Both the position numbers and the translations under genes were made by a program. A DNA stretch of 64,000 nt from a virus (lineage: Duplodnaviria > Caudoviricetes). The stretch is taken from IMG/VR virus record IMGVR_UViG_3300042988_000456, positions 236-64,235 of that record; one strand, written 5' to 3'. The first letter of the stretch is position 1; every line of letters starts with the position of its first letter. Below the pieces are notes generated by a model. It ran no database searches, had not been told where the DNA came from, and was given only the letters and a program-made list of their open reading frames with translations. Positions 542 to 64,000 of the stretch are shown here, piece by piece.

Positions 542-574
542 TGTGACACTCCATGTTTAAACACATATTGGAAA

Positions 575-660
575 CCTGACCATTCGGTCAAGACTGTTCC
601 AATGGTAGCTATCAATTTGATAGCAGGCAAGTGCCACATTTTCCTGACCATTCGGTCAGG
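575..660. promoter_or_regulatory. Two copies of palindromic operator-like CCTGACC-ATTC-GGTCA(GG) flanking palindrome GCTATCA-ATT-TGATAGC
   Basis: cctgaccattcggtca at 575-590, cctgaccattcggtcagg at 643-660, gctatcaatttgatagc at 608-624, directly upstream of terS. Confidence 0.5.
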
Positions 661-908
661 TTCAACCGTCCAACAGTGGCAAAACCAACACCGGAATTGC
701 CTACCACAAATATCGGCCTGCGACATACTGGAAGCGTTATATTGAAAAATTGGGTATACGAAAACCCGTATAACCTGACCCTCACCAAGGCCCTTAGATC
801 GATCTCAGAGCGTCCGTTTTGCGTTTAGGCCACTACCCTACATGCCCCGACCCGTTGGCGCCTTGTAGGCCCCTTCCCGTCATTCTGGGACTTTTTCCCA
901 TTTCATGG

Positions 909-970
909 TTATGCACAGGTTGTACCCAGACTGTGGATAACCCTCTGACTTGTCCACAGCCTGTGGATTC
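909..970. promoter_or_regulatory. Cluster of DnaA-box-like 9-mers
   Basis: ttatgcaca (909), tgtggataa (932, perfect reverse TTATCCACA), ttgtccaca (950), tgtggattc (962), all in intergenic DNA. Confidence 0.55.
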
Positions 971-1157
971 CCCCTAGAAACTCCCCAGAAACCAGTTGTC
1001 CTACTAATAAGAGGGCAAAGCACCTGAGTGCTGCCCCGCTCCGCTGGACTTGCCGTCCGGCAATAACCCTGCAGTCCTGTCAGGCATTCCCCCTGCCATG
1101 TAAACGGTGTGATGTAATGCGTTCTGGCGATATTGCCGTGACCGAAGGATTGATAGT

Positions 1158-1520
1158 ATGACCAACAAGTTTTCCACCTATACGCTGGCCCAGTGCCAGC
1201 ATGCGCTGGCAGATTGCCACGCCACTCTTGAGGCAGGTGAGTACCAACCTGATCACCCCTATGGTCGCAAAGTCTGGGCGGAGATCGATGCCCTGCGTGA
1301 GCGCATTGCCACCCTGAAGGCAAAGCCTGCCGCCAGCACCTTTCAGAATGGCGATACCCGCTACACGTCCAAGGTTGCCACCGTCAACGGCACCAAGGGC
1401 CGCATCTGGACAGTGCGCAGGCTAAAAGCAGGCTCATGGGTGCATGCTGGATGCACATTCACCCCCAAGGAGGCGACAGAAGATGAGGTGATTTACAAGG
1501 CAGGTGATTACCGCATTTGA
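1158..1520 (+). CDS. Hypothetical early protein
   Basis: 120-aa ORF, first gene of the plus-strand block, AAGGA upstream. Confidence 0.6.
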   Translation: MTNKFSTYTLAQCQHALADCHATLEAGEYQPDHPYGRKVWAEIDALRERIATLKAKPAASTFQNGDTRYTSKVATVNGTKGRIWTVRRLKAGSWVHAGCTFTPKEATEDEVIYKAGDYRI

Positions 1521-1582
1521 GACTGCAGCGACATGCCGACAGGCATGTCAGTGCAATCCCGCACTACTTGAAAGGTCTACAA

Positions 1583-2176
1583 ATGAAACGATTCAATACC
1601 CGCGAAGAGTGGCTGCAGGCTGCAGTCACTGAGTTGCGACCCATCTGCGCAAGCATGGCGACAGATATCGCCCTGAACATCAGGGTCAGTTGCGGTTTTC
1701 CCAGCACGTTTAAACGCTCCGGCGCTATCGGAGAATGCTGGGCGGATACAGCATCCGCCGATAAGACGATGGAGATTTTGGTTAGCCCGACCCTCGCAGA
1801 CCCTGCTCAGGTTTTCGAAGTGCTGGTGCATGAGTTGTGCCACACAATGGCTGGGTGCATGAATCACGGCACCACTTTTGCCAAAAACGCTGGGGCCATG
1901 CTGCTGCTGCCGTCCGCATCGAAGGGCTGGAAAGCCACACAGGCAGGCCCTGACTTTGCCACGGTATTCGGCCCGTTGATCGAGTCGCTGGGCGACTATC
2001 CCCACGCCCAATTGTCAGTGTCAGGGAAAAAAACGCAGGCAACCAGAATGCTCAAGTGCTACTGCCCCGAATGCGGGTACACCGTGCGCCTTACCCACAA
2101 GTGGGCTGCAGTGGGTATGCCCATCTGCCCGACAGATCACATGCACATGATTCTCGAAACCAGCGAACAGGAGTGA
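1583..2176 (+). CDS. SprT-like zinc metalloprotease
   Basis: HELCH zincin motif, a downstream H (MNHG), C-terminal CPECG...CP zinc ribbon. Start placed at ATG 1583 after GAAAGG. Confidence 0.8.
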   Translation: MKRFNTREEWLQAAVTELRPICASMATDIALNIRVSCGFPSTFKRSGAIGECWADTASADKTMEILVSPTLADPAQVFEVLVHELCHTMAGCMNHGTTFAKNAGAMLLLPSASKGWKATQAGPDFATVFGPLIESLGDYPHAQLSVSGKKTQATRMLKCYCPECGYTVRLTHKWAAVGMPICPTDHMHMILETSEQE

Positions 2177-2181: not shown

Positions 2182-3621
2182 ATGGCTATTTCGAATTCCC
2201 TTGCGGTAAACGCACTGCCCCTCGCCAATCTGATTCGGGCCTATCAGGCCCTGAGCGGTGCCACGGGCACCGTGACACGCGACCATGCAGTTGACTGGCT
2301 TGTCCGCCATATGGCTGCAACGGGCGCAACGCTGGCGCAAATCCAACGCGCTGGTGCTGGCGCCGTTACCGCTGCCACAAACGCCCCCGCAGCCGCGCAA
2401 CCTGTAACGGTGGATGCCGAGGGCATCCGAACCATGATCGACCAGACAACCGCTCTGGCATCTGCAAATGGCGCAAAGCTGACAACGCTGGAATCTACGC
2501 TTTCCAGTGCGCTGGACACCGTTGAGTCGCTGGGCGACACGGTCACCATGCTGGCTCAACGTTTAAACGCTGCCGAGGATCAGCGGATCGATGCCAGCAC
2601 GGTCAAGCCTGCGCTGGATCAAGCCATTGCTGATGCACTGGCACCTTTCATCACGACCGTCCGGCAAGCGGGCATGGAAGACCGCATTGCAAGTGCCATC
2701 ACACCCTACTGGGGGACTAGGGATGCGGGCGATTTGTTCGGTGTAGTGGCATGCGACCTAAAGGGTGATGAACTTGGGTTTCATGTTTATGCCTCGCCCG
2801 AGGCACCTGCCGTGGATGACTCATACATCTGGACGGCTGAGATGGTGAAGGTGATGGCATTGGCCCAGCACGGGCACAATGTGTGGCTGGGCGGCCCCAA
2901 AGGCACTGGCAAGACTCAGGCGGCAATGCAGTTTGCAGCATGCACGGGTCGCCCATTCACGCGAATCAACTTCCAGAAATACACCAGTGCCGACGATTTC
3001 ATTGGCTGCACTGGGTTGGAAAACGGGGCGACAGTCTGGAAGGATGGCGCATTCCTGCAAGCTTTTGAGCGTCAGGGTAGCGTGATCCTGCTGGATGAAA
3101 TCACAAACGCTGACCCTGCAAATCTGGCAATCCTCAATGGCCTGCTGGAACCTGCTGGACGGGTGATGATCGGCGGACGCATGCGTCAACGGGCTGCAGG
3201 TGTAGTGGTGATCGCTGCAGACAACACCCTTGCAACGGGTGATGACTCCGGCCTATACGCTGGCACTAAGACCATGAATGCCAGCCTGCCTGAGCGTTTC
3301 CCATTGATGATTGCATGCCAGCACCTTGATCCGCAGACTGAAATAGATGCGCTGGTGAAGCACACTGGCTGCAGGACTGAACTTGCCACTGCAGTGGTGA
3401 AAGCTATTGGCGCATGCCGTGCCAAGGTCGCGACAGGGGACATCGTGGATGCCCCGTCCATTCGGGCTGCAATGGCATACATCAGGGCCATTCCCATCAT
3501 GGGCAGTCGCATGGCATGGAATGCCACGATTGCATTCAAACAGCCTGCCGAGTCCGCCACTGCGCTGGAAGGCATCAGGATTGCCTACATCAATGACTCG
3601 ATGATTGAGTCCTACGTTTAA
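2182..3621 (+). CDS. MoxR/CbbQ/CobS-like AAA+ ATPase
   Basis: Walker A GPKGTGKT, Walker B ILLDE, AADNT sensor region, SLPERF arginine finger, C-terminal PSIR. Confidence 0.88.
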   Translation: MAISNSLAVNALPLANLIRAYQALSGATGTVTRDHAVDWLVRHMAATGATLAQIQRAGAGAVTAATNAPAAAQPVTVDAEGIRTMIDQTTALASANGAKLTTLESTLSSALDTVESLGDTVTMLAQRLNAAEDQRIDASTVKPALDQAIADALAPFITTVRQAGMEDRIASAITPYWGTRDAGDLFGVVACDLKGDELGFHVYASPEAPAVDDSYIWTAEMVKVMALAQHGHNVWLGGPKGTGKTQAAMQFAACTGRPFTRINFQKYTSADDFIGCTGLENGATVWKDGAFLQAFERQGSVILLDEITNADPANLAILNGLLEPAGRVMIGGRMRQRAAGVVVIAADNTLATGDDSGLYAGTKTMNASLPERFPLMIACQHLDPQTEIDALVKHTGCRTELATAVVKAIGACRAKVATGDIVDAPSIRAAMAYIRAIPIMGSRMAWNATIAFKQPAESATALEGIRIAYINDSMIESYV

Positions 3622-3638
3622 ACAAAGGGGAATGAAAG

Positions 3639-5243
3639 ATGAAAGCACGTTACAACGGTTTCGAATTCCGCAACGGGGTCACCGCTGCGATTCATAAAAT
3701 CTGCGCAGATCAGGGTATTGATTCTGTCCAGATTGTGTGGTCTGGTGATGTCTCGACTGCCTGCATCAATGCTGACGGGGCACTGTACCTGCCCAATCCA
3801 CGGGACGGCGCAGTCTTGACGCATGCCATGCTGGAACGCTTCGTGGGCTACGGGTTCCATGAGTTGCTACACCGCAAATACACCGACTTTGCCGTGAGTG
3901 GTGGGGACCAGTACTTAGACATGATCCACAATGCAGTGGAAGATGCATGGATCGAACGCAACGCTGTCAATGCCCGCCTGACCGGAAACGCTGACGCATT
4001 GCTCAAGACCCTGATTGACGGTCTGGTAGCCGAGGGCATGGAACATGTCACTGACTGGGCAGACCCTGCACAGTATCCCTTTAGCCTCGCAGTGTTCTGC
4101 CGCCCGTGGGCAACCCCCGTGCCAGTGCCTGCAACCCTGCTGCCTATCTGGCAAGCTGCCAATGCACTGATCCCCAACTGCCGCAATAGCTACGACACGC
4201 TAGAAGTCGCCAAGTATGTTTTTGACAACCTGCCCCGCACCTCTGCCAAAAACCGCCCCAATGGCAACCAAGCACCCAAGCTGCCGCAACCGCAGGCAGG
4301 TGATGCGGGCGACAAGCAACCTGCAGGGCAAGGCGCAGGTGATGCGCAGGGTGACCAGCAAGGGGATGAGTCCAACAAGACTGCGCCCAACGCTGGAAAG
4401 GCCCAGCAAGTGTCCAGCAAGACCATTGCCAACGATGCCGAACCGAATTGCAAGCTGCCTGCCGATCAGGCATCAGGCGGGACATATTCGGGCGCAGCCG
4501 ATCTCCGCCGCAAGGGCTTTCACCTGAGCCAACAGGTCTACCCTGTTCAAATGACTGCCAGTGCCAAATTGCGGGTCGAACTTAAACGCCTGCTGGATGC
4601 ATCCGCCCGTGAGGAATTCACGCATGGCCTGCGCACCGGACGTTTAAACGTTCAGAGTCTTCCAAAGCATAGTTACTCCGACACAATTTTCAGCAAGCGC
4701 ATGGAGCAGGACGGGATCGACACTGCCGTTGGCATCCTGATCGATGTCAGCAACTCTATGCTTGACGCCTGCGCAGGTGCTGATGGCAAGCCGGATTCAT
4801 CCACCCTACTGCGCGAAGCAGTGAACGCTGCAGCAACCCTTCTGGACTGCCTCCGCCGTGCGCAGGTGCCAACGCTGGTAGCGACTTTTGATGACTTCTA
4901 CAGTGTCGTAAAGGATTGGAATGAAAGCCCCATAGCGGGTGCTGCAAGCCTGAGCCGAGTGAAAGACGGTGGAAGCACTGAGGACTTTGCAAGCCTGCGA
5001 TGGATGCACGATCAACTGCAGGTGCGCAGCGAACAACGCAAGATTGTGTTCGTACTGACTGACGGTTGCGGGGACTTCCAGTCCACCTACGAACAGACCC
5101 TGTCGGGCGAGCGTCTGGGAATCACGACTATCGCTATCGGCCTGAACACTGATGTATCGCATGCATACAACAAGTCTGTGCGGGTCGCCAATGCCGCTCA
5201 ACTGGGCGAGGTATCGTTTAAACAAATCAAGCTTGCACTCTAA
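3639..5243 (+). CDS. CobT-like VWA-domain protein with N-terminal HExxH motif
   Basis: N-terminal HELLH and NAVEDAWIE, low-complexity linker, C-terminal MIDAS DVSNS...T...LTDG; adjacent to the AAA+ gene. Confidence 0.85.
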   Translation: MKARYNGFEFRNGVTAAIHKICADQGIDSVQIVWSGDVSTACINADGALYLPNPRDGAVLTHAMLERFVGYGFHELLHRKYTDFAVSGGDQYLDMIHNAVEDAWIERNAVNARLTGNADALLKTLIDGLVAEGMEHVTDWADPAQYPFSLAVFCRPWATPVPVPATLLPIWQAANALIPNCRNSYDTLEVAKYVFDNLPRTSAKNRPNGNQAPKLPQPQAGDAGDKQPAGQGAGDAQGDQQGDESNKTAPNAGKAQQVSSKTIANDAEPNCKLPADQASGGTYSGAADLRRKGFHLSQQVYPVQMTASAKLRVELKRLLDASAREEFTHGLRTGRLNVQSLPKHSYSDTIFSKRMEQDGIDTAVGILIDVSNSMLDACAGADGKPDSSTLLREAVNAAATLLDCLRRAQVPTLVATFDDFYSVVKDWNESPIAGAASLSRVKDGGSTEDFASLRWMHDQLQVRSEQRKIVFVLTDGCGDFQSTYEQTLSGERLGITTIAIGLNTDVSHAYNKSVRVANAAQLGEVSFKQIKLAL

Positions 5244-5253: not shown

Positions 5254-5664
5254 ATGACACCAAAACCATTCACCGCTGCAGACCTGACGGTCTGCGCACA
5301 ACTGATGCAGGCACTGCGTGACAGCATGCCGCACTTGATCCCTGCAGGCATGGAGCCTGTCTTAACCACAATCGATCAAGAGGATGACGGCATCCAGATC
5401 GGGGAGTTTCACATTCAATCGGTGGAGATGGAGCGCAACAGCATTCTGGGCGGAACCATGCAGGGATACCAGTTGACTGTGATGGTTGTCAGCATGGGCG
5501 GCATGTGGGAGCCTGACGATGTTGACTTCAAAGTCCTGTCGGAGGATGTTCACTACACCAAGTGCATCAAACATATTGCACTGGCCTTGCAGGAACAGTT
5601 GATTGACATGATCACAGATAACGTCTTACGTTTAAACGAAGGCACCATGCAAGAGGCACTGTGA
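5254..5664 (+). CDS. Hypothetical protein
   Basis: ORF with AAGGGG RBS; overlaps next gene (GTGA). Confidence 0.6.
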   Translation: MTPKPFTAADLTVCAQLMQALRDSMPHLIPAGMEPVLTTIDQEDDGIQIGEFHIQSVEMERNSILGGTMQGYQLTVMVVSMGGMWEPDDVDFKVLSEDVHYTKCIKHIALALQEQLIDMITDNVLRLNEGTMQEAL

Positions 5665-5882: not shown

Positions 5883-6115
5883 TGCGGTACTTGGACTACG
5901 AACCCTTCGGCAAAGAATTTGTGGTGCATGGTGGCACTACAAGTCTGAGTGTCTATAGCCGACCATATCGGGTGCGTGAGGTGCGCAATGGACGCACCGT
6001 CACCCATCGGGGTCACAACCCTTCGGACTGCATTGCCCTGATGCAAAAGATCGACGGCCCCTTCACGGTGCCGCTGGGTGTGAAGCGTCACCTGAATCGT
6101 TTTCTGGGAGTTTAA
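5879..6115 (+). CDS. Hypothetical protein
   Basis: GGAGG RBS, ATGA overlap; stop codon lies within a GTTTAAAC. Confidence 0.55.
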   Translation: MMRYLDYEPFGKEFVVHGGTTSLSVYSRPYRVREVRNGRTVTHRGHNPSDCIALMQKIDGPFTVPLGVKRHLNRFLGV

Positions 6116-6264
6116 ACATGAGCCAACTTAGCAAGGCATTTCTGTACAGCATGGTGCAAGCTATGTACAAATATGAGGCAGGCTGCACTGCCCAGCCTCA
6201 CCTGCTGACAGATGAAGAAATGATGGATTTTTACCGTGCCTACATGGGCCGATAGGGGAACAAC

Positions 6265-6651: not shown

Positions 6652-6884
6652 TCTGGTACGCATCCAACAAAGGCGAGGCTGCATCGGTATGGATGCACAC
6701 TGAACAAGGCGAAGTGATGATTGCCGACTGTCATTCCAAGGTTCTGACCACTGAAGCCCAGCGTTTAAACGCAAAGCTTATGGCGGCATCGCCCGAGATG
6801 ATGGACGCACTCAGGGATTTGGCGAAGTACATCCCTGACGCTCACATCGCATTGCGTGACATCCAACGTCGATACGGGTTGTGA
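6648..6884 (+). CDS. Hypothetical phage protein
   Basis: Contains NAKLMAASPEMMDAL, the common phage small-protein motif NARLIAAAPELLEAL. Confidence 0.65.
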   Translation: MIWYASNKGEAASVWMHTEQGEVMIADCHSKVLTTEAQRLNAKLMAASPEMMDALRDLAKYIPDAHIALRDIQRRYGL

Positions 6885-7108
6885 TTGAGGTAGTCCAATG
6901 TTTGCACCATCCAGACCCTAAGTACCTGAACGCTATCCATGCCAAAGCTTTCACCATCATTGTTCACACCCCGCCCAAGCGGGGCGCTTACATCCGGTGG
7001 GATGGTGGCAAATTCTGCGTGTTTAAACAGGATGTTCGATCCAGTAGGCACGGGACGATATGGGAAGCCTGCTCCCGAGTAAGACAAGCTTCCATGCCGT
7101 TCAAATGA
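6881..7108 (+). CDS. Hypothetical protein
   Basis: GTGA-coupled ORF ending just before a terminator. Confidence 0.5.
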   Translation: MIEVVQCLHHPDPKYLNAIHAKAFTIIVHTPPKRGAYIRWDGGKFCVFKQDVRSSRHGTIWEACSRVRQASMPFK

Positions 7109-7110
7109 TT

Positions 7111-9114: not shown

Positions 9115-9552
9115 TCACTCCGGTATTTGTTGAAAGCGTTTGATGTTGAGGAGAACACAAGGTTCTACATCCTGCCAATCACTGCGGTCAGTGCGTCCAC
9201 CAAGGGTCACACCATCGTGCAGGAATTCGTCCTTGAAGGACGAATAATACAGACCACCATTGGTCTGCACAACCAGAACAAACGGGGTTTTTGTCACCTG
9301 CGATAAGGACTTTGCCGCCAGCCATTTGTCCACACTCAGCAGGTAGCCGCCGAACTGTTGAATCTGCTGCATGGAGTAGTTGCGCACCTTGATTTCACAA
9401 AATGCCACCACCCTGTTCTTGCGTGTAAACGCATAGTCCAAGCAGTATTTGATTGGCAACTTGTGTGCATTGGCTTGCCACACTTGCTGCAATGAAAGTA
9501 CCACCTGTGCTTCTCTGTTCAAGTCTTCCTGTGTTTCGTATTTAGGTCTCAC
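9115..9552 (-). CDS. PD-(D/E)XK-fold nuclease-like protein
   Basis: LDYAF...FCEIKVR motif. Confidence 0.65.
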   Translation of the reverse strand: MRPKYETQEDLNREAQVVLSLQQVWQANAHKLPIKYCLDYAFTRKNRVVAFCEIKVRNYSMQQIQQFGGYLLSVDKWLAAKSLSQVTKTPFVLVVQTNGGLYYSSFKDEFLHDGVTLGGRTDRSDWQDVEPCVLLNIKRFQQIPE

Positions 9553-10589: not shown

Positions 10590-10720
10590 AAGCGTAGCAA
10601 GTGTAGCTGTAGCAAACGGCAGAAAAATCAAGGATCGAAATGTGTTCATTTCCATCCTGAAAATTAACACATCACTAACTGCGTTTAAACGTTACTTGCC
10701 GGGTACTTGTTCCACAGCTT

Positions 10721-10770
10721 TAATATAATCTCGCTGTGCGAGATTATATTACCCCGTGAAACATTGTCAA
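10721..10770 (-). promoter_or_regulatory. Consensus sigma70 promoter overlapped by a 14-bp perfect inverted repeat
   Basis: Minus strand TTGACA-16 nt-TATAAT; taatataatctcgc-tgt-gcgagattatatta at 10721-10751. Confidence 0.75.
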
Positions 10771-11011
10771 GCGCCTAGTTTAAATTCCATGCTTTTGCGT
10801 TTAAACAACCTGTCCTTGGAAGGCCACGCCGTTACGCCCTCATTTTTTGACCTTAACGGGTCAGCGTTTACACAGGTGGCTCATCTGGTGAGCCTAGTGC
10901 CCCGTAATGCACCGTAGTGATCCGTGTTGATCCTTGTTGAGGTACAATGAGACCACTTCTCCTTGAAGTTGTTCGTCTCCCTGTCAGCACTGCGGTGCTG
11001 TTCAAGCCTCC

Positions 11012-14725: not shown

Positions 14726-14739
14726 ACAAGGAGATTGGA

Positions 14740-40549: not shown

Positions 40550-40627
40550 CGTGATCTCCAAAGATGTACCAGAGCAGCCATATCAGTGTAAACACTACAT
40601 ACACCAACAGGGCTGCAAGTGCCAAAG

Positions 40628-55129: not shown

Positions 55130-55158
55130 TTTATACCACTTTGTTTAAACCACTTCAA
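55130..55158 (-). promoter_or_regulatory. sigma70-like promoter with GTTTAAAC in its spacer
   Basis: Minus strand TTGAAG-tggtttaaacaaagtgg (17 nt)-TATAAA. Confidence 0.5.
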
Positions 55159-56780: not shown

Positions 56781-57230
56781 TTATTTAGAACCTGAACCAA
56801 AACCGCCACGGGTCGCTGAAGACTTGCGGTCTGCAAACAACGGCATGCGCGGGTCATTTTGACGCATAAAGTTATTGTCCACCGACTCCATCTGATTGTT
56901 GTTTTGCCGCTGGTAGTACTCAGCAATGGCTTGTGCGCGTTCAGTGGGCATCTTGCAGAGCATGAGTCCACCAATCTCGACGTTGCCAGTCTTTTCGTTA
57001 CCTGTAAGCATCAACTCAGGATGGTCTTCCGCCTTCACCGGAACCCAGCCGTCACGCATCTTCTTGGAAACGTTGGTTGGGTCACTCTGGCCTAGGATGT
57101 GTGTAGCTACCCAGCGGAAGCTCCATCCCGGTATCGGAGTGGGGTCAGGCAAAGTGCTTGACGGTGTGTAAACAAAACGAGCAGTTTTGTCGCGGGTTTC
57201 AAGATCACGGGGTGTTTTATCAATAGCCAT
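56781..57230 (-). CDS. Conserved head-module protein
   Basis: FRWV...NVSKKMRDGW.PV...GGLMLCK.P. Confidence 0.65.
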   Translation of the reverse strand: MAIDKTPRDLETRDKTARFVYTPSSTLPDPTPIPGWSFRWVATHILGQSDPTNVSKKMRDGWVPVKAEDHPELMLTGNEKTGNVEIGGLMLCKMPTERAQAIAEYYQRQNNNQMESVDNNFMRQNDPRMPLFADRKSSATRGGFGSGSK

Positions 57231-58180: not shown

Positions 58181-58615
58181 TTAAGCGCGAGTTACACCAC
58201 GGGGGTCAACTACAACGGCGTCCACTTGGTCATCGTTGAGTAGACGCATTTCCTTGCCGTACATCTTGAATCGCGTTCCCGAGTAGGTTCGAACCAAGAT
58301 GAAGTCGCCCTGTTTACACCAAGGGCCGGAGGGAAATTTGTTGGCATCCTTGTATGCGTCCGGGCCAACAGCCAAGACAAACAGGACGGTGGTGCCATGT
58401 TCTTCAGCGCGAAGCTGAGACGTTGGCTTGACCAAATCCAGTGTTGTGCCATCGATGTTTTCGGAGACATCAGGAACAATGCACAAGATTTTGTACCCTT
58501 GCGGAATGGGAAGCTGAGTGGCTTTCTGCTCTGCAGGGATGTTCTCATCCTGCGTGGGTGCAGGCTGGATAGGTTTGGGCATGCTCACGCCCGGGGGTAG
58601 GATCAGATCAATCAT
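58181..58615 (-). CDS. GroES-like co-chaperonin
   Basis: PQGYKIL...VLAVGPDAY...WCKQGDFIL..YSG...RLLNDD.V.AVV. Confidence 0.8.
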   Translation of the reverse strand: MIDLILPPGVSMPKPIQPAPTQDENIPAEQKATQLPIPQGYKILCIVPDVSENIDGTTLDLVKPTSQLRAEEHGTTVLFVLAVGPDAYKDANKFPSGPWCKQGDFILVRTYSGTRFKMYGKEMRLLNDDQVDAVVVDPRGVTRA

Positions 58616-58804: not shown

Positions 58805-61357
58805 TTACTCTCCTTTGGTTGGTGATTTCCTGCTTGCAATGAGGGCTTTTTGCGCCTCAAACTCTTTGTCATCCTTCTGGCGGGCCACTTCCACACCCAG
58901 TTTCATGCCAGCATGCTGCTGGTCAAACTTCTGCTTGAGTTGATCCTTGCGGATTTGCGCTCCAAGCTTGGTGCTTTGCATCTGAATGTCTGCCGACGCC
59001 TTCTGCTCCTTCAAAGCCTGATCTTTTTCCGCAATTGCTGCTTCCAGTTGCAGTTTTGCGGTGTGAAGTTGCTGTTCTGCAGCCAGTTTTTGGGCTTCCA
59101 ACTGCAGTTTTTGAGCTTCCAGAGCCTGTTTTGCCTGTATTTCCTGCCCCTTGAGTTGCAGTTCTTGACCTTTAAGCTGCAATTCCTGCTGCTGCATCTG
59201 AATCACAGGGTCTTGGGCTTGCTGTTGGGCCTGTTGCTGCTGTGCAGCGGCCTTTGCCTGCTCCAAAATCTGGTTTGCGGCCTGTGCCATCATTCCAGAC
59301 AGGGCAACTTCCACCTCTGGAGGCAGTTTTTCGTCTTCCGGCGGGATTGGCATGCCCAATTGCTGCTCAATCCGCTGGCGATACTGGAAGCCCAAGTGTT
59401 CTGCAATGTGAGCATCCAGCGCAGCCATGATGACAGGTGCGCGTTGGTTCTGTCCCATTGCTTGCGCAATGGTCGGGTCTTGCTTCATTGCATTGTGGAC
59501 TGCAAGGTGTGAGTTGTGATCCTGATGGAAAAACGCTTTTACAGGCTCCCCCTTCAGAACTGCGGAGTTTTCTGTGACAGGGTCTTGCGGAGTCTGGTCT
59601 TCCGGCAGCTTGACGATCTTTTCGGCATTCTTGATGCCTAAAACCTCCAGCATGCGCCTGTGCAACTGCGGTAGATCGTATATATCTGGAGCCATTTGCG
59701 CCATCTGAATGACGGCTTGATACTGGACAACCCGCTGGGACATGGTTGCTGCGTTGGGATCACTGACGGGGATGATCTCCACCATGTCATAGTCAGACTT
59801 CTTGGCAGTGCGGTCTGATGTGTCCGGTTCGTATTCATACTCTGTGTCGGTGTAATCCCGGATGATCCCGGCAAGCAGGCGAAGTTCCTGTTTAAACGAG
59901 TTGTGGATACGCGCCTGAACGGCTGTCATCACCTTCAACTGACGCTCAAGGATGGCGAGTGTGGAGCCTACAGGCGCCTGTGCCGACATGTCAGACACTT
60001 GCATGTCTGCGGTGGAGGCAAAGCGGCGACCTTCTTCAACGATCTGATTCAGCAGGGTGTACAGAACCTGACTGGGTTCCTTGTACGGCAGGGGCAGAAT
60101 GTTGTCGCGGATGGCCCCAGAGCCGATGTCCACATCACGGAACTCGCCCGGGGCGATGGGGGTGTCATCCCCTTTGATACGCATTCCACGGGATTTGAGA
60201 CCGCCGGGGAGGTTGGACAGGGTTCCTGCGTCAATAAGCTGACGCATGATGGAGGTGGCAGACTTGGCAAATCCACCGATGAGGTGGAAGAGGCCAAAGC
60301 CGTAGGCACCAAAGCCGGGGATGTATTGGTAGTGGACAAAATGCTGACGTTTCTGGCGATAGTCATCATCCTCTTTCCAATTCCGGCGAATGGACAAAAC
60401 TTCATTGGTGCCCTTGAGGAGCGTGACCACATAGGGCAACGCGATGCCTGTCGGCTCGCCGTCTTCATCTTCATCGTTTAAACCATCAATGTCCAAGTCC
60501 ACATGGCATTCATAGATGGTGTAACGGTCATCGTTGATGTCATTGAAGCCGGTCTCTTTGTCCTTGGCCTTCTTGATGTCATCCTGTGACTTCTCCGGGT
60601 CGGGCAAGTCAATGTCACGGTAGAAGCCAGCCTTCTGCAGCTTGATGATTTCGTTTTCCGTCTTGCGCATGACATGCGTCAGGCGGTAGCAGGTGTTTAA
60701 ATCTGACACACCATACGGCAGGATCACATCCTCTGCCGGGATGAAAATGGAGACTTGCCGCCCAAGACTGGGGTCGTAGTACACCTTCTTGAACGCCGAG
60801 CCTGTAGCAGGAAGACTCCACAGCATGCGCTCATGCTCTGGACGGAACTCCTGCATGACTTCCGTCAACTCATAGTTCATGTCTTCTTCCACCCGGGCGG
60901 CAGCTTCCTTCTTCTCGACGGTTTCCTTGCCGACAATTTTGGTCTTGACCGGCCCTGCTGCGGGGAATGATTCGGTGATGGTTTCAGACTGGAATCTGAC
61001 CACTGCTTCGGTGATCATGGGGTGGAAGACGCCGGAAGCTCCGCTCCACGGCTCTGTACGGTCTTCATACTGCAGACCAAGCAGCTTCAGCCCTTCTGTG
61101 TAGGCTTTTTCCCATTCCTTGCGGGATGCCTTGTCGTTTTCAATGTCCTCTTCCAGTTCGGAAGCCAAGGACAGGATCACAGACTCGCTCAATGATTCTG
61201 CGAGGTTTTCACCAAAATCGGGTTCGATTTCAATCTCCAACTCCTCAATCTCAATGACTGCGTCCGGGTCTTCAATTTCAACCTCTATTTCGGTTGGTGT
61301 GATTTCTTCCAGCCCAGCGGGCGCTTGGTAGAGGGATTTGTCGAAGTTGGTAGCCAT
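58805..61357 (-). CDS. Portal protein
   Basis: 850 aa; GSAFKKVYYD, RQLIDAGTLSN, Q-rich C-terminal barrel; follows TerL. Confidence 0.88.
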   Translation of the reverse strand: MATNFDKSLYQAPAGLEEITPTEIEVEIEDPDAVIEIEELEIEIEPDFGENLAESLSESVILSLASELEEDIENDKASRKEWEKAYTEGLKLLGLQYEDRTEPWSGASGVFHPMITEAVVRFQSETITESFPAAGPVKTKIVGKETVEKKEAAARVEEDMNYELTEVMQEFRPEHERMLWSLPATGSAFKKVYYDPSLGRQVSIFIPAEDVILPYGVSDLNTCYRLTHVMRKTENEIIKLQKAGFYRDIDLPDPEKSQDDIKKAKDKETGFNDINDDRYTIYECHVDLDIDGLNDEDEDGEPTGIALPYVVTLLKGTNEVLSIRRNWKEDDDYRQKRQHFVHYQYIPGFGAYGFGLFHLIGGFAKSATSIMRQLIDAGTLSNLPGGLKSRGMRIKGDDTPIAPGEFRDVDIGSGAIRDNILPLPYKEPSQVLYTLLNQIVEEGRRFASTADMQVSDMSAQAPVGSTLAILERQLKVMTAVQARIHNSFKQELRLLAGIIRDYTDTEYEYEPDTSDRTAKKSDYDMVEIIPVSDPNAATMSQRVVQYQAVIQMAQMAPDIYDLPQLHRRMLEVLGIKNAEKIVKLPEDQTPQDPVTENSAVLKGEPVKAFFHQDHNSHLAVHNAMKQDPTIAQAMGQNQRAPVIMAALDAHIAEHLGFQYRQRIEQQLGMPIPPEDEKLPPEVEVALSGMMAQAANQILEQAKAAAQQQQAQQQAQDPVIQMQQQELQLKGQELQLKGQEIQAKQALEAQKLQLEAQKLAAEQQLHTAKLQLEAAIAEKDQALKEQKASADIQMQSTKLGAQIRKDQLKQKFDQQHAGMKLGVEVARQKDDKEFEAQKALIASRKSPTKGE

Positions 61358-61365
61358 ACGCTTCC

Positions 61366-62859
61366 TTAGTAATAAGCGACTCTGCGATTGATGACGGGTT
61401 CGTCTTCTTCATCCGATGCAATGGAGATGAAGCCGCCTTGGCGGAATCTCATCAACGCCTGTGAACTGGAGTCCACCAAGTCATCGTGATCACCATTGGG
61501 GAATGAGGCCAACTCATCCATCACCTCTTCTGCCCATCTTGTGTCAGGGCACCACACAATCCCAGAAGCAAATAAATCTGCGATTGCGTTTACACGCGCA
61601 ATCTTATCGTTTCCTTTCCCCGGTGTATATTCCGACAGAGGGACGCCGATCTTTCGCAACTCATACAGCAGCGGGGCACCCGCTGCCTTCTTCTCAATGA
61701 TCAATGTGTCAGGTTCCCATTCCTGATATAGCTCTAACGCCCTCTTCTTCAGTTCCGGGAATTCCATGCGTTCTTTAAACGCATCCAAGAGGATGATGTT
61801 GGTCTTGGACACACCATGCTCATCCGGGTAGTCAAAGACCCCCCATGTGGTGCAGGCTGAGAAGTCAGCACGGTTGTTCTTCTCAAAGGCGGTGTCCCAA
61901 GACTGCAGGATGTATTCACATGGCGGGGGACTCTTCTTCTCCCAAATCCTCCACTGATCCCGCTTGATGATGGCCCCCTCTTCCGAGGTGGGGTTCTGCT
62001 GGTACTGCGCTTCCCATTTGGAGACGGGGATTTCAGCCTTGATGGCTTCCAGTTCTTCTTTCTTCCAAAAGGCAGGCCACAGGGGATTGCCAGAGGGCAT
62101 GATGGCAGGAAACTCGATGACTTCCCACTGATCTACTCCGTCGCCACCGGACTTCTTCAGAATCTGACCGGTCAGGTCTCTCTTGGCCCAGCGGGTCATC
62201 ACAATGATGATGGCCCCTCCGGGCTGTAACCGCTGACGGGGGCCGGATGTATACCATTCATACACTCCGTCATAGACGGCGGGATTGTTCTGCTTGGCTT
62301 CCTGTTCCGAATGGGGATCGTCAATGATCAGGATGTCAGCACCCTTACCGGTCACTGCACCACCAACACCGATGGCGAAGTAATCACCTCCTGCGGAGGT
62401 GTTCCATCGTCCTGCAGCCTTGGAATCAGAAGACAACTGCGTCTGAAATACCGCCTGATAAGGCGGGGACTGCACAAGGTTCCTGACCTTACGACCAAAT
62501 CCTGTGGCTAGTTCTGCGGTGTGAGCCGTCTGAATGATCTTCTTCTGCGGGAATTTCCCAAGGAACCATGCAGGAAGCAGGAACGATGCAAACTCTGACT
62601 TGGTATGCCGGGGCGGCATATTGATGATCAACCTCTTGAGGGTGCCGTTGGCAACCCTCTCAAAGGCATCTGCCATGATCTGATGATGCTTTCCAGAGAT
62701 GAAGACAGGCCACATCTGCTGGACAAAGAACAGGAAGCTGTCTTTACAGCGTTCTACCCGATCAAGCTCTAACAGCGCATTGATCTTCTTTCTCTCAGCC
62801 TCTGGCACCTTGTCGATAATCGACAAGTACTTCGTGACTTCAGCCTTGGTCAGAAGCAT
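61366..62859 (-). CDS. terL: Terminase large subunit
   Basis: MPPRHTKS Walker A, IIDDP Walker B, QSWDTA...EKKA...HDDLVDS RNase H-like nuclease. Confidence 0.95.
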   Translation of the reverse strand: MLLTKAEVTKYLSIIDKVPEAERKKINALLELDRVERCKDSFLFFVQQMWPVFISGKHHQIMADAFERVANGTLKRLIINMPPRHTKSEFASFLLPAWFLGKFPQKKIIQTAHTAELATGFGRKVRNLVQSPPYQAVFQTQLSSDSKAAGRWNTSAGGDYFAIGVGGAVTGKGADILIIDDPHSEQEAKQNNPAVYDGVYEWYTSGPRQRLQPGGAIIIVMTRWAKRDLTGQILKKSGGDGVDQWEVIEFPAIMPSGNPLWPAFWKKEELEAIKAEIPVSKWEAQYQQNPTSEEGAIIKRDQWRIWEKKSPPPCEYILQSWDTAFEKNNRADFSACTTWGVFDYPDEHGVSKTNIILLDAFKERMEFPELKKRALELYQEWEPDTLIIEKKAAGAPLLYELRKIGVPLSEYTPGKGNDKIARVNAIADLFASGIVWCPDTRWAEEVMDELASFPNGDHDDLVDSSSQALMRFRQGGFISIASDEEDEPVINRRVAYY

Positions 62860-62959
62860 GTGTCACCAACACTTTGAGAGAGGGGTGTGGGGTGAGAGCT
62901 AACCCCACTTTGTGGGGTTGGACTGAGCATCAGGACAACCAAATTAGATGCACTGTACA

Positions 62960-63169
62960 TCACAGTTTTCCTCCTGCGTTGCGTTTGAGCAACTGCATCA
63001 CATGCCACATGACTCTAAATGGCGTGGTTAAGCCAAGTGTTGCTACAAAAACGATAGCAACAAAGTACTTGACAAGCAGTGGTGCGGGTTCCACGGCATG
63101 TTTCACGGACTCAGGAGCAAATTTCCTGAAGAATGGCTCAACCATGCGGTTCCAATAGTTATGGTTCAT
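62960..63169 (-). CDS. Small hypothetical membrane protein
   Basis: Hydrophobic segment; ATGA overlap. Confidence 0.4.
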   Translation of the reverse strand: MNHNYWNRMVEPFFRKFAPESVKHAVEPAPLLVKYFVAIVFVATLGLTTPFRVMWHVMQLLKRNAGGKL

Positions 63170-63396
63170 AACCTTGAAATATCCTGAGCAGATTTGTCAA
63201 CTAAGACAATTGACCTGAACTTGTACGGTCTCAAGGTCAACAACCCATCAGCCTTTAGCTGATGAACAATCCTGTGGATGTTCGCTTTTGACTTCAACTG
63301 CACTGCCTTGGCAATCACCTCATACGACGGTGACTTCCCATGAATTCTGCTGTAGACCCTGATGAAGTCCAAGATCAATTGTTTTCTGTCTTGCAT
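63166..63396 (-). CDS. LexA N-terminal-like winged-helix protein (no peptidase domain)
   Basis: ILDFIR......G.SPSYEVIA..V.LKS...IHRIV..L...GLL. Confidence 0.75.
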   Translation of the reverse strand: MQDRKQLILDFIRVYSRIHGKSPSYEVIAKAVQLKSKANIHRIVHQLKADGLLTLRPYKFRSIVLVDKSAQDISRL

Positions 63397-64000
63397 GGCA
63401 CATCCACACTTGCAGCCCACTCCAGAAGACGCAGAGCGTCTTTCTGCCGAAGATCAGGCCACCCACCCTTTGCAATCTTCACATGACGTAGTTCTTCCGG
63501 GATGGTGTACTCACCCCACTGACCAATCCATACAGGTTCTGCTATCAATTCCATAGCAGTGAAGTGTAAACGATAAATGAGAACGTTCCCATATGTTTAA
63601 ACTTGATTGTGATGTAGGGGTATTCTGCGTTTAAACGCTTCTATATTGGCAACTGCCAAACAAAAATGGCAATTGCCAAAAATATATATAGGGGGGAGGG
63701 GTAGCGTTTTGGTTGGGTATGGGGGGGTGATTGGAAGAGGGGATTTAGGGGTAATTGGAAGAATGGATTAGAGCGTAACGTTGTGCAGGGGCAACATGGG
63801 TCAATATAGGCGGGTGGGTATACGGTGGGGTCTCGCCATCCGAGTCACCCACACCACAGCCCCAATCCCAGCACTTCCCTGCCCATCTCCCAGCCTCTGC
63901 ACTGCCTCACCCATACCAGCACTGCATCACACCCATCCAATCGCTCCCACATGCCTGCAGCCTGACGGTTACCTGAGTGGTGCAGCCCCTAGGCTGAGAC

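What the first reader, a model, noticed from the sequence alone, without database searches (positions are those of the whole stretch)
555..63636. Genome-wide highly iterated palindrome GTTTAAAC, selected at the DNA level
Seen: about 36 exact copies counted by eye (about 1 expected for an 8-mer in 64 kb, fewer in GC-rich DNA). There are also more than 20 GTGTAAAC/GTTTACAC and many other one-mismatch copies. The motif is written into genes in all frames: R-L-N using TTA, x-F-K, and as the V-stop ending genes at 3616, 6110 and 14720. It also lies in a promoter spacer (55143) and flanks the strong promoter (10683, 10799). Ten copies fall in the first 7 kb, 0.3-1.2 kb apart. Known: this is the PmeI site, and restriction pressure depletes rather than enriches palindromes; iterated motifs such as HIP1, Chi, KOPS and uptake sequences are protein-read signals. 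Inference: an unrecognised protein-DNA system marks the whole phage genome, for example for protection, condensation, translocation or titration of a host factor. Candidate readers are the small DNA-binding proteins at 13655, 15558, 15968 and 63166, or a host protein.
Basis: partly seen in the sequence, partly recalled or inferred. Interest (0 to 1): 0.9.

Follow-up and report, generated by a model that had tools for sequence, protein, structure and literature searches.

The report
Phage DNA word array GTTTAAAC
This uncultured phage writes the eight-letter word GTTTAAAC (or GTTTACAC) into its DNA wherever its genes allow, and the same word travels through unrelated phages together with one small SprT-like zinc protein that is probably its reader, a pairing I found in no paper.

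Summary
GTTTAAAC occurs 37 times in the window against 0.54 expected. Inside called genes there are 21 copies, against 0.9 after synonymous-codon shuffles and 4.1 after shuffles that keep protein, codons and dinucleotides. Over half of the peptide contexts that can encode the word do so. Near-misses such as GTTTACAC (26 sites) fill contexts where the peptide forbids the perfect word.

The trait is shared by the whole phage family: 577 copies in 817 kb across 80 related loci. It also occurs in unrelated phage lineages and in cultured phages of Actinobacteria and Proteobacteria. That argues against a factor of one host clade.

One gene recurs with the word, a SprT/SPRTN-like zincin with a conserved C-terminal KQSTR zinc ribbon (window 1517-2176). 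It lay in 24 of 47 word-rich loci and in 0 of 113 other loci.

My best reading, at about 50%, is an array of docking sites for this phage protein. What the array does is unknown.

This scan already noted the word in at least 14 other phage genomes. My literature searches found no description.

The parts
555..562 (.). exact GTTTAAAC, outside called genes
1708..1715 (.). exact GTTTAAAC, inside the SprT-like ORF
2561..2568 (.). exact GTTTAAAC, R-L-N in gene 2056-3621
3616..3623 (.). exact GTTTAAAC, GTT-TAA stop of gene 2056-3621
4642..4649 (.). exact GTTTAAAC, R-L-N; also present in relative G004
5216..5223 (.). exact GTTTAAAC, S-F-K-Q
5630..5637 (.). exact GTTTAAAC, outside called genes
6110..6117 (.). 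exact GTTTAAAC, GTT-TAA stop of ORF 5852-6115, followed by ATG at 6118
6763..6770 (.). exact GTTTAAAC, R-L-N; also present in relative G002
7021..7028 (.). exact GTTTAAAC, outside called genes
10683..10690 (.). exact GTTTAAAC downstream of the consensus promoter 10770-10743 (-)
10799..10806 (.). exact GTTTAAAC upstream of the same promoter
12047..12054 (.). exact GTTTAAAC, R-L-N in exonuclease gene; GTTTAAAT in G002 and G003
13635..13642 (.). exact GTTTAAAC, Q-F-K-Q
14235..14242 (.). exact GTTTAAAC, outside called genes
14720..14727 (.). exact GTTTAAAC, GTT-TAA stop of gene 14477-14725, then AAGGAG
14885..14892 (.). exact GTTTAAAC, G-L-N
15907..15914 (.). exact GTTTAAAC, G-L-N
16140..16147 (.). 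exact GTTTAAAC, G-L-N in the Mor-like gene
21320..21327 (.). exact GTTTAAAC, outside called genes
21961..21968 (.). exact GTTTAAAC, G-L-N
22330..22337 (.). exact GTTTAAAC in the giant virion protein gene
23541..23548 (.). exact GTTTAAAC in the giant virion protein gene
23731..23738 (.). exact GTTTAAAC, S-L-N; kept in 4 of 5 complete relatives
26331..26338 (.). exact GTTTAAAC in the giant virion protein gene
29976..29983 (.). exact GTTTAAAC in the giant virion protein gene
31005..31012 (.). exact GTTTAAAC in the giant virion protein gene
31585..31592 (.). exact GTTTAAAC, G-L-N in gene 31087-32856
32857..32864 (.). exact GTTTAAAC abutting the ATG of gene 31087-32856 (-)
36857..36864 (.). exact GTTTAAAC in the intergenic space before gene 34714-36846 (-)
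39408..39415 (.). exact GTTTAAAC, G-L-N; GTGTAAAC in G006
48154..48161 (.). exact GTTTAAAC, R-L-N
55143..55150 (.). exact GTTTAAAC between genes, next to a terminator-like hairpin at 55110-55124; no promoter found by the scan
59890..59897 (.). exact GTTTAAAC in the portal gene; also present in G002
60476..60483 (.). exact GTTTAAAC in the portal gene
63595..63602 (.). exact GTTTAAAC in the control region upstream of the LexA-DBD gene
63629..63636 (.). exact GTTTAAAC in the same control region
8415..8422 (-). variant GTTTACAC (A-F-T-Q)
9423..9430 (-). variant GTTTACAC
10866..10873 (+). variant GTTTACAC near the strong promoter
12373..12380 (-). variant GTTTACAC
12912..12919 (+). variant GTTTACAC (V-Y-T, the frame in which the exact word would be a stop)
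15575..15582 (+). variant GTTTACAC
17040..17047 (+). variant GTTTACAC (V-Y-T)
24234..24241 (-). variant GTTTACAC
28981..28988 (+). variant GTTTACAC
29557..29564 (+). variant GTTTACAC
29676..29683 (-). variant GTTTACAC
33846..33853 (-). variant GTTTACAC
35349..35356 (-). variant GTTTACAC
35689..35696 (+). variant GTTTACAC
39576..39583 (+). variant GTTTACAC
40586..40593 (-). variant GTTTACAC, intergenic
41276..41283 (-). variant GTTTACAC (V-Y-T)
44327..44334 (-). variant GTTTACAC (V-Y-T)
45632..45639 (-). variant GTTTACAC
47935..47942 (-). variant GTTTACAC
51540..51547 (-). variant GTTTACAC (V-Y-T)
54139..54146 (-). variant GTTTACAC
57166..57173 (-). variant GTTTACAC (V-Y-T)
58312..58319 (+). 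variant GTTTACAC
61588..61595 (+). variant GTTTACAC in the terminase gene
63564..63571 (-). variant GTTTACAC; homologue of the second word copy of the conserved N22 pair in relatives
1517..2176 (+). SprT/SPRTN-like zincin and candidate reader of the word. It carries HELCH and a C-terminal YPH...KxQxTR...C...PxCP zinc ribbon. The ORF runs from TTG at 1517; the alignment suggests the real start is ATG at 1601.
   Evidence: Pfam SprT-like scores below cut-off (E 0.002). phrog_6361 matches at E 2.6e-37. The AF2 model has pLDDT 90.6 and its best PDB match is SPRTN 6MDW. Co-occurrence with the word is shown.
63166..63420 (-). 84-aa protein with a LexA DNA-binding domain and no peptidase domain. It is a rival or additional reader, and its upstream region holds three word copies.
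   Evidence: Pfam PF01726 matches at E 2.2e-6. The protein is present in all 5 complete relatives. No homologue was found in other word-rich lineages.
10743..10770 (-). perfect TTGACA-16-TATAAT promoter, ringed by four word or word-like copies within about 200 bases

Best explanation
GTTTAAAC and its tolerated relatives (roughly RTKTAMAY, above all GTTTACAC) form an array of docking sites on the phage's own double-stranded DNA. The best candidate is the first early gene, the SprT/SPRTN-like zincin at 1517-2176, reading through its conserved C-terminal KQSTR zinc-ribbon module.

Shown:
- The word is kept by a DNA-level force wherever the protein sequence permits.
- The same force acts in relatives and in unrelated phage lineages infecting different bacterial phyla.
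- The SprT-like gene co-occurs with the word.

Inferred:
- The protein binds the word.
- Selection acts on site number and density rather than on individual positions.
- The bound protein does something useful on phage DNA. My guess is that it tethers a DNA-dependent protease, or in lineages without the catalytic motif a bare DNA binder, to the early region to remove or block host DNA-bound proteins or to regulate early transcription. That function is speculation.
For: DNA-level force:
- 37 sites against 0.54 expected.
- 21 sites in genes against 0.88 and 4.11 under the two protein-preserving shuffles.
- 14 of 23 [RGSC]-L-N contexts and 7 of 13 x-F-K-[QHLPR] contexts carry the word, although TTA is a rare codon (74 uses).
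- All 6 of 6 V-Y-T are GTTTACAC, and 5 of 7 A-L-N are GCTTTAAAC.
- Pooled over six family genomes, 139 of 233 permissive contexts carry the word against 10.7 expected from protein and codon usage.

Symmetric recognition:
- Only positions 3/6 (11.4x and 7.2x) and 1/8 (3-7x) tolerate change, in mirror fashion. Positions 2, 4, 5 and 7 do not.

Family and beyond:
- 577 sites in 817,366 bases of 80 loci sharing an 82-86% identical terminase; 78 of 80 loci have at least one site.
- Five complete relatives carry 16, 18, 49, 39 and 46 sites, with controls of 0-2.
- Where the peptide is conserved in a relative, the word is kept in 7 of 12 cases and is a 7-of-8 match in 4 more. General same-codon identity at conserved amino acids is 45%.
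- Unrelated word-rich lineages carry up to 3.3 sites per kb.

Link to the SprT-like gene:
- It is one of only two early genes of the window shared with the other word-rich lineages.
- It lies in 24 of 47 word-rich dispersed loci, against 0 of 105 word-poor and 0 of 8 tandem-repeat loci from the same scans.
- 80 loci chosen only for an SprT homologue hold 525 sites in 711,783 bases, and the word is the top palindromic octamer in 74 of 80.
- Cultured phages with the gene: Floof has 16 GTTTACAC against 0.36 expected. Tweety19 has 27, R5C 17, and Mano and ep3 4 each.
- Bordetella phage CN2, whose homologue lacks the KQSTR motif and the cysteines, has 1 site in 62 kb.
- Family 2 has lost HExxH but keeps the C-terminal module, and it has the densest arrays.
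- Relatives DSL-LC04 and 023Pt_psg01 have neither the gene nor the word in the 50 kb examined of each.

Placement:
- Copies flank promoters.
- In 63 of 68 SprT loci, copies lie inside the SprT ORF at conserved offsets, and most of those loci have no copy upstream of it.

Fold:
- The model has pLDDT 90.6 and its best PDB match is the SPRTN protease domain 6MDW, at probability 0.97 and E 4.3e-3.
Against: - No binding was measured or modelled, and the homodimer job gave no verdict.
- Co-occurrence is confounded by shared ancestry. Many of the loci belong to a few lineages, and the SprT tree largely follows phage lineage.
- 23 of 47 word-rich loci show no SprT gene. They are fragments with a median of 8.4 kb, so this neither supports nor refutes the link.
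- Enrichment in Mano and ep3 is weak: 4 sites each, with a control of 0-2.
- SPRTN's zinc-binding subdomain is known, from the entry title and from my own knowledge, to bind single-stranded DNA without sequence specificity. Sequence-specific reading would therefore be new.
- A small single domain reading 8 base pairs is unusual. The actinophage word is not a palindrome, while the tolerance pattern here is symmetric, so the stoichiometry is unclear.
- A Toprim primase is also shared, in 10 of 21 word-rich loci.
- The window's array is not more evenly spaced than chance: CV 1.15 against 0.96.
- Pfam SprT-like scores below its gathering cut-off: 18.4 against 25.6 bits.
Confidence: 0.5

Rival explanations
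1. The word is a dispersed operator or roadblock site for a different phage-encoded regulator, working like the stoperators of Cluster A mycobacteriophages. In this family that would be the 84-aa LexA-DBD protein at 63166-63420. In other lineages it would be an analogous small regulator, for example the sigma-region-4 protein of family 2 or the sigma-like HTH next to SprT in Cluster AZ phages. Under this reading SprT merely sits in the same early cassette.
For: - In 19 pairs seen among the relatives, a conserved GTTTAAAC-N22-GTTTAAAC pair brackets a -35-like element. It ends about 8-10 bases before the ATG of the LexA-DBD gene.
- The window has three copies at 63564, 63595 and 63629, spaced 31 and 34 bases apart.
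- Four copies ring the consensus promoter at 10770-10743.
- 16 of 37 sites lie in the 12% of the DNA outside called genes.
- Arrays are densest in early regions.
- Family 2 encodes a Sigma70_r4 protein.
- The AZ preprint reports a sigma-like HTH protein conserved next to the SprT-like gene (passages read).
Against: - The LexA-DBD protein had no homologue in any of the 21 other word-rich loci at E <= 0.01, yet the word is identical there.
- An 8-bp palindrome with abutting 4-bp half-sites is too compact for a classical HTH dimer. This point rests on my own knowledge.
- Stoperators are asymmetric 13-mers oriented with transcription. This word is symmetric and lies in either orientation relative to genes.
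- Different regulators converging on the same octamer across phyla is unlikely.
Confidence: 0.17
2. A host factor or host enzyme common to many bacteria reads the word, and phages gain by recruiting or titrating it. Candidates are a nucleoid protein, topoisomerase, methyltransferase or repair nuclease. Alternatively, a methylation-linked repair bias creates the word, as proposed for cyanobacterial HIP1.
For: - An 8-bp palindrome with R/Y and K/M degeneracy resembles a restriction or modification target.
- The word is the PmeI site (my own knowledge).
- Turnover of positions with conserved density fits a continuing drive: 44 of 61 grid positions are private to one genome.
- The 16.2-21.3 kb segment, whose genes have no homologues in the relatives, has no sites, as if the word accumulates with residence time.
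Against: - No methyltransferase or restriction enzyme was found by Pfam among the 31 early, control-region and giant-protein ORFs scanned. The 20 further large proteins were scanned against PHROGs only, and about 20 small structural-region ORFs were not scanned at all.
- Word-rich phages infect Actinobacteria and Alpha-, Beta- and Gammaproteobacteria. Close structural relatives that lack the early cassette lack the word.
- Among 80 metagenome loci returned by the pair scan, only 4 had dispersed enrichment by exact-word count, all phage-like. A looser count including the variant adds 2 weak cases, L322 and L340, which I did not examine.
- The one bacterial bin tested has 45 sites in 3.2 Mb, with a control word count of 163.
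- Word preference differs between phage lineages independently of G+C content.
- A repair bias acting on one base cannot give a 13- to 70-fold excess of a whole octamer (my inference).
Confidence: 0.13
3. The word acts on single-stranded nucleic acid. It could be a priming signal for the shared Toprim primase. It could be a recombination or nicking hotspot for the phage's Sak, exonuclease, RusA and PD-(D/E)XK set. It could also be self-complementary RNA or ssDNA pairing between copies.
For: - A Toprim primase is the second gene shared with other word-rich lineages, in 10 of 21 loci.
- The window carries a full recombination module.
- Every copy of a palindrome can pair with every other copy.
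- Intergenic pairs often bracket G+C-rich hairpins.
- In family 2, spacing is more even than chance in 7 of 9 related loci: CV about 0.6 against 0.95.
Against: - Known primase recognition is 3-5 bases (my own knowledge).
- Priming or recombination signals would be needed genome-wide, not mainly in the early region.
- The recombination genes are not shared with the other lineages.
- The asymmetric word in Floof lies on both strands (10 + and 6 -) although every annotated gene is on one strand. That argues against an RNA signal.
Confidence: 0.08

Closest known systems
Stoperators of Cluster A mycobacteriophages (L5/Bxb1-type immunity repressor); PMC9283540, abstract seen in the search listing
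   Same: Both involve tens of copies of one short word spread over a phage genome, in and between genes. In stoperators the word is read by a phage-encoded protein and acts beyond promoters.
   Different: - Stoperators are asymmetric 13-mers oriented with transcription, and they belong to one phage cluster and its repressor (my own knowledge).
- This word is an 8-mer that is palindromic in most lineages and orientation-free.
- It is written into more than half of all permissive codon contexts.
- It is shared by unrelated phages of several bacterial phyla.
- It travels with a protease-like protein, not with an immunity repressor.
HIP1 (GCGATCGC) and alternate highly iterated palindromes of cyanobacterial chromosomes (Elhai 2015, recalled, not read here; HIP1 papers seen only as listings)
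   Same: Both are palindromic octamers enriched by one to two orders of magnitude. Both occur in all reading frames and between genes, spread by substitution rather than by insertion, and have no known function.
   Different: - HIP1 is a chromosomal trait of a host clade and is linked to orphan methyltransferases (recalled).
- This word is a phage trait that crosses host phyla. No methyltransferase was found, and it is denser in early regions.
- It has a candidate protein partner.
SPRTN/Wss1/SprT DNA-dependent metalloproteases (PDB 6MDW; Cluster AZ preprint 10.1101/2025.05.26.655371, passages read)
   Same: The candidate reader has the HExxH zincin core followed by a small zinc-binding DNA-binding subdomain. 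Its best structural match is SPRTN. [quoted passage not shown]
   Different: - SPRTN binds DNA without sequence specificity and repairs DNA-protein crosslinks (my own knowledge).
- A fixed genomic address for such a protein is not described in the passages I read or in my searches.
- One phage lineage has lost the catalytic motif but kept the DNA-binding module.
Dispersed C1 operators of phage P1 and the 17-bp palindromes of Cluster O mycobacteriophages (both recalled, not checked here)
   Same: Repeated protein-binding words or palindromes scattered over a phage genome.
   Different: Those are longer, mostly intergenic and confined to one phage group. No codon-level writing of the word into genes is reported, as far as I recall.

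Membership tests
Highly iterated palindrome (HIP1-type) | Palindromic octamer enriched far above composition-based expectation | tested here: met
   37 against 0.54 expected; 139 against 10.7 given protein and codon usage in six genomes
Highly iterated palindrome (HIP1-type) | Present in coding DNA in several frames and in non-coding DNA, arising by substitution | tested here: met
   The two non-stop frames hold 14 and 7 sites, 3 sites form stop codons, and 16 sites lie outside genes. Sites in relatives sit on the same codon grid without insertions.
Highly iterated palindrome (HIP1-type) | Trait of the cellular chromosome of a host clade | tested here: not met
   The word is enriched in phages of four bacterial classes. 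Only phage-like contigs showed clear dispersed enrichment among 80 metagenome loci, with 2 weak cases unexamined. One bacterial bin was not enriched. Hosts of the cultured phages were not tested.
Highly iterated palindrome (HIP1-type) | Cognate orphan methyltransferase for the word or its core (recalled from Elhai 2015) | tested here: not met
   No methyltransferase appeared among the 31 ORFs scanned with Pfam; 20 more were scanned with PHROGs only, and small structural-region ORFs were not scanned. Host enzymes are unknown.
Stoperator-type dispersed repressor sites | Many copies of one word across the phage genome | tested here: met
Stoperator-type dispersed repressor sites | Asymmetric site with fixed orientation relative to transcription | tested here: not met
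   The word is a palindrome here. The asymmetric variant lies in both orientations: 16 sense and 7 antisense in the window, and 10 + and 6 - in Floof.
Stoperator-type dispersed repressor sites | Bound by the phage immunity repressor | not testable with these tools
   The LexA-DBD gene's control region carries the word, but the protein is absent from the other word-rich lineages.
SprT/SPRTN-like zincin (candidate reader, 1517-2176) | HExxH catalytic motif | tested here: met
   The window protein has HELCH, and 64 of 66 distinct homologues from the SprT loci have HExxH. Family 2 lacks it.
SprT/SPRTN-like zincin (candidate reader, 1517-2176) | Profile match to the curated family | tested here: inconclusive
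   Pfam PF10263 matches at E 0.002 and 18.4 bits, below the 25.6-bit cut-off. phrog_6361 (no function given) matches at E 2.6e-37. Isolate homologues are annotated 'SprT-like protease' by their depositors.
SprT/SPRTN-like zincin (candidate reader, 1517-2176) | Fold of protease subdomain plus zinc-binding subdomain | tested here: met
   The AF2 model has pLDDT 90.6. The top PDB match is 6MDW (SPRTN) at probability 0.97, E 4.3e-3, TM 0.34; then come minigluzincins, CapP and IrrE. The match is weak by E-value.
SprT/SPRTN-like zincin (candidate reader, 1517-2176) | DNA-dependent protease activity | not testable with these tools
   needs biochemistry
Type II restriction target under avoidance (PmeI site) | Depletion of the site, or a cognate enzyme pair in phage or host | tested here: not met
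   The site is enriched about 70-fold, and no such enzymes were found.
Polar chromosome signals (Chi, KOPS, uptake sequences) | Non-palindromic word with strand or orientation skew | tested here: not met
   The word is its own reverse complement. The variant shows only a mild sense excess that coding frames explain.

The most novel reading that the evidence does not exclude
A widespread, undescribed two-part phage system. One part is a SPRTN-like protein whose KQSTR zinc ribbon reads an 8-bp address (GTTTAMAC). The array would tether a DNA-dependent protease to phage DNA, or a bare DNA clamp where the catalytic site is lost. There it would strip or block host DNA-bound proteins such as silencers, restriction or other defence complexes, or gate early transcription. 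Different phage lineages have retuned the address by one letter.
Probability: 0.3. Interest if true: 0.9.

Novelty: new variant of a known kind. Interest (0 to 1): 0.8.

Why it matters
If the pairing holds, it gives a sequence-specific address to a protein family (SprT/SPRTN) known only as a non-specific DNA-dependent protease. It would also explain a striking genome signature seen in hundreds of uncultured aquatic phages.

It is directly testable. The same signature is present in cultured, non-pathogenic systems: Microbacterium phage Floof, Arthrobacter phage Tweety19, Dinoroseobacter phage R5C and, weakly, E. coli phage ep3.

It would be a small, tractable model for the long-open question of why genomes maintain highly iterated palindromes.

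It also has practical uses. The word can flag phage contigs and early regions in metagenomes, and it affects codon-usage and restriction-site statistics of these phages.

Tried and rejected
Host identification:
- A terminase scan of 185,579 species genomes gave only a 1.5-kb contig in a Saprospiraceae bin, and that bin's genome is not enriched.
- The window has no tRNA genes.
- There is no near match to isolated phages for the window, L114 or L133.

Phage methyltransferase or restriction enzyme: none was found among the 31 ORFs scanned with Pfam, and 20 more large proteins were scanned with PHROGs only. About 20 small ORFs of the structural region were not scanned.

Floof as a counter-example: I first read Microbacterium phage Floof as one, because it has a 43% identical SprT homologue and only 1 exact site. 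I withdrew that when an unbiased octamer ranking put GTTTACAC on top, with 16 sites.

SprT autoregulation through a site just upstream of its gene: this holds for the isolates. By coordinates, Floof, Tweety19, Mano and ep3 have a copy 18-85 bases upstream. It does not hold for the aquatic loci, where only 3 of 68 have a copy within 100 bases upstream, against about 8% expected.

SprT tree: word preference groups by lineage, but the clade joining the window with the actinophage proteins has support 0.49 and spans most of the tree. I therefore make no sister-group claim. Class-discriminating residues are confounded because 60 or more of the 72 palindrome-only rows are one lineage.

Homodimer prediction for the SprT-like protein: no verdict, score 0.11 against a mark of 0.42. 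It counts neither for nor against.

Even spacing: this is seen only in family 2 (7 of 9 related loci), not in the window.

Ribosomal frameshift signal (U-UUA-AAC): rejected, because sites occur in two frames, between genes and on both strands.

Literature: searches found no paper on enrichment of this word. [quoted passage not shown]

Full report
**What the window is.** The window is bases 236-64235 of a 64,235-base IMG/VR phage record that CheckV rates complete.
- Genes from about 1 to 22 kb are mostly early, replication and recombination genes. They include an SprT-like ORF, a MoxR-like ATPase, a VWA protein, a primase-helicase, a PD-(D/E)XK nuclease, RusA, an exonuclease, a Sak annealing protein and a Mor-like protein.
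- Genes from 22 to 63 kb on the minus strand are virion genes. They include a 2967-aa polyvalent protein with GP88, ART-PolyVal and LPD38 domains, tail proteins, the major head protein, portal and large terminase.
- There is no near match among isolated phages. The nearest terminases are 55-59% identical: phage 023Pt_psg01, phage DSL-LC04 and Pelagibacter phages.

- GTTTAAAC occurs 37 times against 0.54 expected.
- I called 72 genes covering 88% of the window with a codon-usage score. This is a home-made call, and the SprT-like ORF was missed by it.
- Twenty-one sites lie wholly inside those genes. Synonymous-codon shuffles give 0.88, with a maximum of 5 in 300. Shuffles that also keep dinucleotides give 4.11, with a maximum of 11 in 300.
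- Of 23 [RGSC]-L-N tripeptides, 14 are written xGT-TTA-AAC although TTA is rare. Of 13 x-F-K-[QHLPR] contexts, 7 carry the word.
- The remaining 16 sites lie in the 12% of the DNA outside called genes, or form the GTT-TAA stop of a gene.

**Near-misses are part of the signal.**
- GTTTACAC (26), GTTTAAAT (13) and GTTTAAAG (11) are each about 7- to 17-fold enriched. They sit where the peptide cannot take the perfect word. Examples are V-Y-T in the frame where the word would be a stop (6 of 6 written GTTTACAC), x-F-T-x, x-V-N and A-L-N (5 of 7 written GCTTTAAAC).
- I pooled six genomes of the family and computed the expectation from each protein and each genome's codon usage. The word is used in 139 of 233 permissive contexts, against 10.7 expected.
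- Change is tolerated only at positions 3/6 (T to G, A to C: 11.4x and 7.2x) and at positions 1/8. Positions 2, 4, 5 and 7 show no excess.
- The two halves behave as mirror images. This fits recognition of double-stranded DNA with dyad symmetry.

**Relatives.**
- The terminase has 537 relatives in IMG/VR. The best 80 loci, at 81-86% identity, hold 577 copies in 817 kb, and 78 of the 80 have at least one.
- Five complete relatives hold 16-49 copies, against 0-2 for the control word.
- These genomes are far apart. Only 15-20% of the window aligns by blastn, at about 69% identity.
- On a codon grid built from tblastn alignments, 59 window-site by relative comparisons were alignable. The peptide was conserved in 12, the word was kept in 7 of those, and 4 more were 7-of-8 matches. 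At conserved amino acids generally, 45% of codons are identical.
- Of 61 grid positions that carry the word in any of the six genomes, 44 are private to one genome. The force therefore acts on every permissive place, not on fixed positions.
- The two more distant isolates have no enrichment, with 3 and 0 copies in 50 kb each.

**Beyond the family.**
It recovered the family and also unrelated contigs with 2-3.3 copies per kb. Their terminases are 23-25% identical or unmatched, and their G+C is 34-48%.
- One such lineage, 'family 2', encodes a glutamine amidotransferase, an amidoligase, a nucleotide kinase, a glycosyltransferase and a sigma-region-4 protein.
- Its copies are concentrated in the early region. 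For example, 31 of 43 lie in 9 kb of a 34-kb record.
- They are spaced more evenly than chance in 7 of 9 related loci: CV about 0.6 against 0.95.
- The same scan of metagenome contigs (119 stretches, 80 loci returned) gave clear dispersed enrichment in only four contigs, all phage-like. The rest were tandem repeats or chance pairs. A looser count that includes the variant adds two weak contigs that I did not examine.

**The gene that travels with the word.**
- Only two early genes of the window have homologues in the other word-rich lineages. They are the SprT-like ORF at 1517-2176, in 12 of 21 loci, and a Toprim primase, in 10 of 21.
- Across all 160 loci returned by the two pair scans, an SprT profile hit 24 of 47 word-rich dispersed loci, 0 of 105 word-poor loci and 0 of 8 tandem-repeat loci.
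- Conversely, 80 loci fetched only for an SprT homologue (40-61% identity, out of 462 relatives) hold 525 copies in 712 kb. The word is their commonest palindromic octamer in 74 of 80.
- In 63 of 68 distinct loci of that set, copies lie inside the SprT ORF at conserved offsets. Most loci have no copy anywhere upstream of it, so the array begins at this gene and runs downstream.
- I reached this link, before consulting earlier notes of this scan.

**Earlier notes of the scan.** One search showed that the same word had been noted in at least 14 other phage genomes. Several follow-up agents had also tied it to an SprT-like protein and mentioned one-letter variants. These are unchecked AI notes and I treat them as leads only.
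- One lead changed my reading. I had taken Microbacterium phage Floof as a counter-example, with a 43% identical SprT homologue and 1 exact copy. An unbiased ranking of its octamers then put GTTTACAC first, at 16 copies against 0.36 expected.
- I then tested five more isolates with the gene:

| Phage | Count |
|---|---|
| Arthrobacter phage Tweety19 | 27 GTTTACAC |
| Dinoroseobacter phage R5C | 17 GTTTAAAC |
| Achromobacter phage Mano | 4 |
| E. coli phage ep3 | 4 |
| Bordetella phage CN2 | 1 |

- CN2's homologue is the one that lacks the conserved KQSTR motif and the cysteines of the C-terminal module.
- Family 2 has lost HExxH but keeps that module, and it has the densest arrays.
- Word choice differs by lineage and not by G+C:
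  - Family 2 and most aquatic loci use only the palindrome.
  - This family uses both words (16-49 palindromes and 17-27 variants per genome).
  - The two actinophage isolates use only the asymmetric word.
  - High-G+C R5C and several 58% G+C loci use only the palindrome.

**The protein.**
- Pfam's SprT-like profile matches below its cut-off, while phrog_6361 matches strongly.
- A 32-sequence alignment shows invariant E, W, L near the N-terminus, then YPH, Q-T-R-K, and C...P-C-P.
- The AlphaFold2 model is confident, at pLDDT 90.6. Its best PDB match is the SPRTN protease domain 6MDW (probability 0.97, E 4.3e-3). Minigluzincins, CapP and IrrE follow.
[quoted passage not shown] The passages I read mention no iterated word.

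**What it most likely is.** I read the word as the genomic address of a phage-encoded DNA-binding protein, most probably this SprT-like protein through its C-terminal zinc ribbon.
- Shown: the DNA-level force, its spread across phage lineages and host phyla, and the co-occurrence with the gene.
- Inferred: binding itself, and any function.
- Placement hints at a role in early transcription or in protecting or clearing early DNA. The array starts at the first early gene. It is densest in early regions. Copies ring a perfect promoter and bracket the promoter-like region of the LexA-DBD gene in 19 pairs seen among the relatives. These are hints only.

**Rivals and confounders.** The main rivals are another co-inherited regulator (stoperator-like), a universal host factor or enzyme, and a single-strand signal for primase or recombination. 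The chief confounder of my preferred reading is shared ancestry of the loci counted.

**Novelty.** My searches found no paper on enrichment of this word or on a sequence address for SprT-like proteins. Supplements were closed.
- The closest known things are stoperators (PMC9283540, abstract in listing) and HIP1. The word fails defining features of both.
- I file it as a new variant of a known kind, a dispersed protein-site array in a phage genome. There is a substantial chance that it is a new kind of two-part system.
- It is not new to this scan.

Noticed in passing
window 63640-63690: Two adjacent palindromes of the TTGGCA-N2-TGCCAA / TGGCAATTGCCA type lie next to the word copies in the control region. 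TGGCAA and TTGGCA are the commonest hexamers of the whole window, at 150 and 116 copies.
   Followed up: no
window 909-970 and family loci L005-L084: The DnaA-box octamers TATCCACA and GTGGATAA are among the commonest octamers of the 80 family loci, at 201 and 186 copies in 817 kb. This suggests a host-DnaA-dependent origin near the terminase/early junction.
   Followed up: no
loci L038-L084; window 63571-63594: A conserved GCGAACGTTC palindrome lies between the two word copies of the N22 pair upstream of the LexA-DBD gene. The window has GGGAACGTTC at the same place. It may be the operator of that protein.
   Followed up: no
L114:175-930, 3251-3787, 6904-7692, 8159-8914: The unrelated word-rich 'family 2' phages encode a glycosyltransferase, a nucleotide monophosphate kinase, a class-II glutamine amidotransferase and an amidoligase. 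From my own knowledge, this gene set resembles thymidine hypermodification pathways.
   Followed up: partly
metagenome loci L315, L363, L370, L330, L367, L321: These loci hold tandem arrays whose unit contains GTTTAAAC, with periods of 10, 19, 21, 23, 27 and 39 bases. They are unrelated to the dispersed phage arrays.
   Followed up: no
window 16200-21300: This 5-kb segment of small genes has no homologue in the five complete relatives and no word copy. It looks like recently acquired DNA not yet 'written'.
   Followed up: partly
window 22174-31077 (-): A 2967-aa virion polyvalent protein carries GP88, ART-PolyVal, YunG-like and LPD38 domains. Only its C-terminal quarter has relatives in isolated phages.
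   Followed up: partly
L305 (Microbacterium phage Floof) 19340-19361 and 46161-46182: TTGCGCAA is the second most over-represented palindrome in Floof, with 5 sites against about 0.3 expected. It twice sits directly before a GTTTACAC copy.
   Followed up: no
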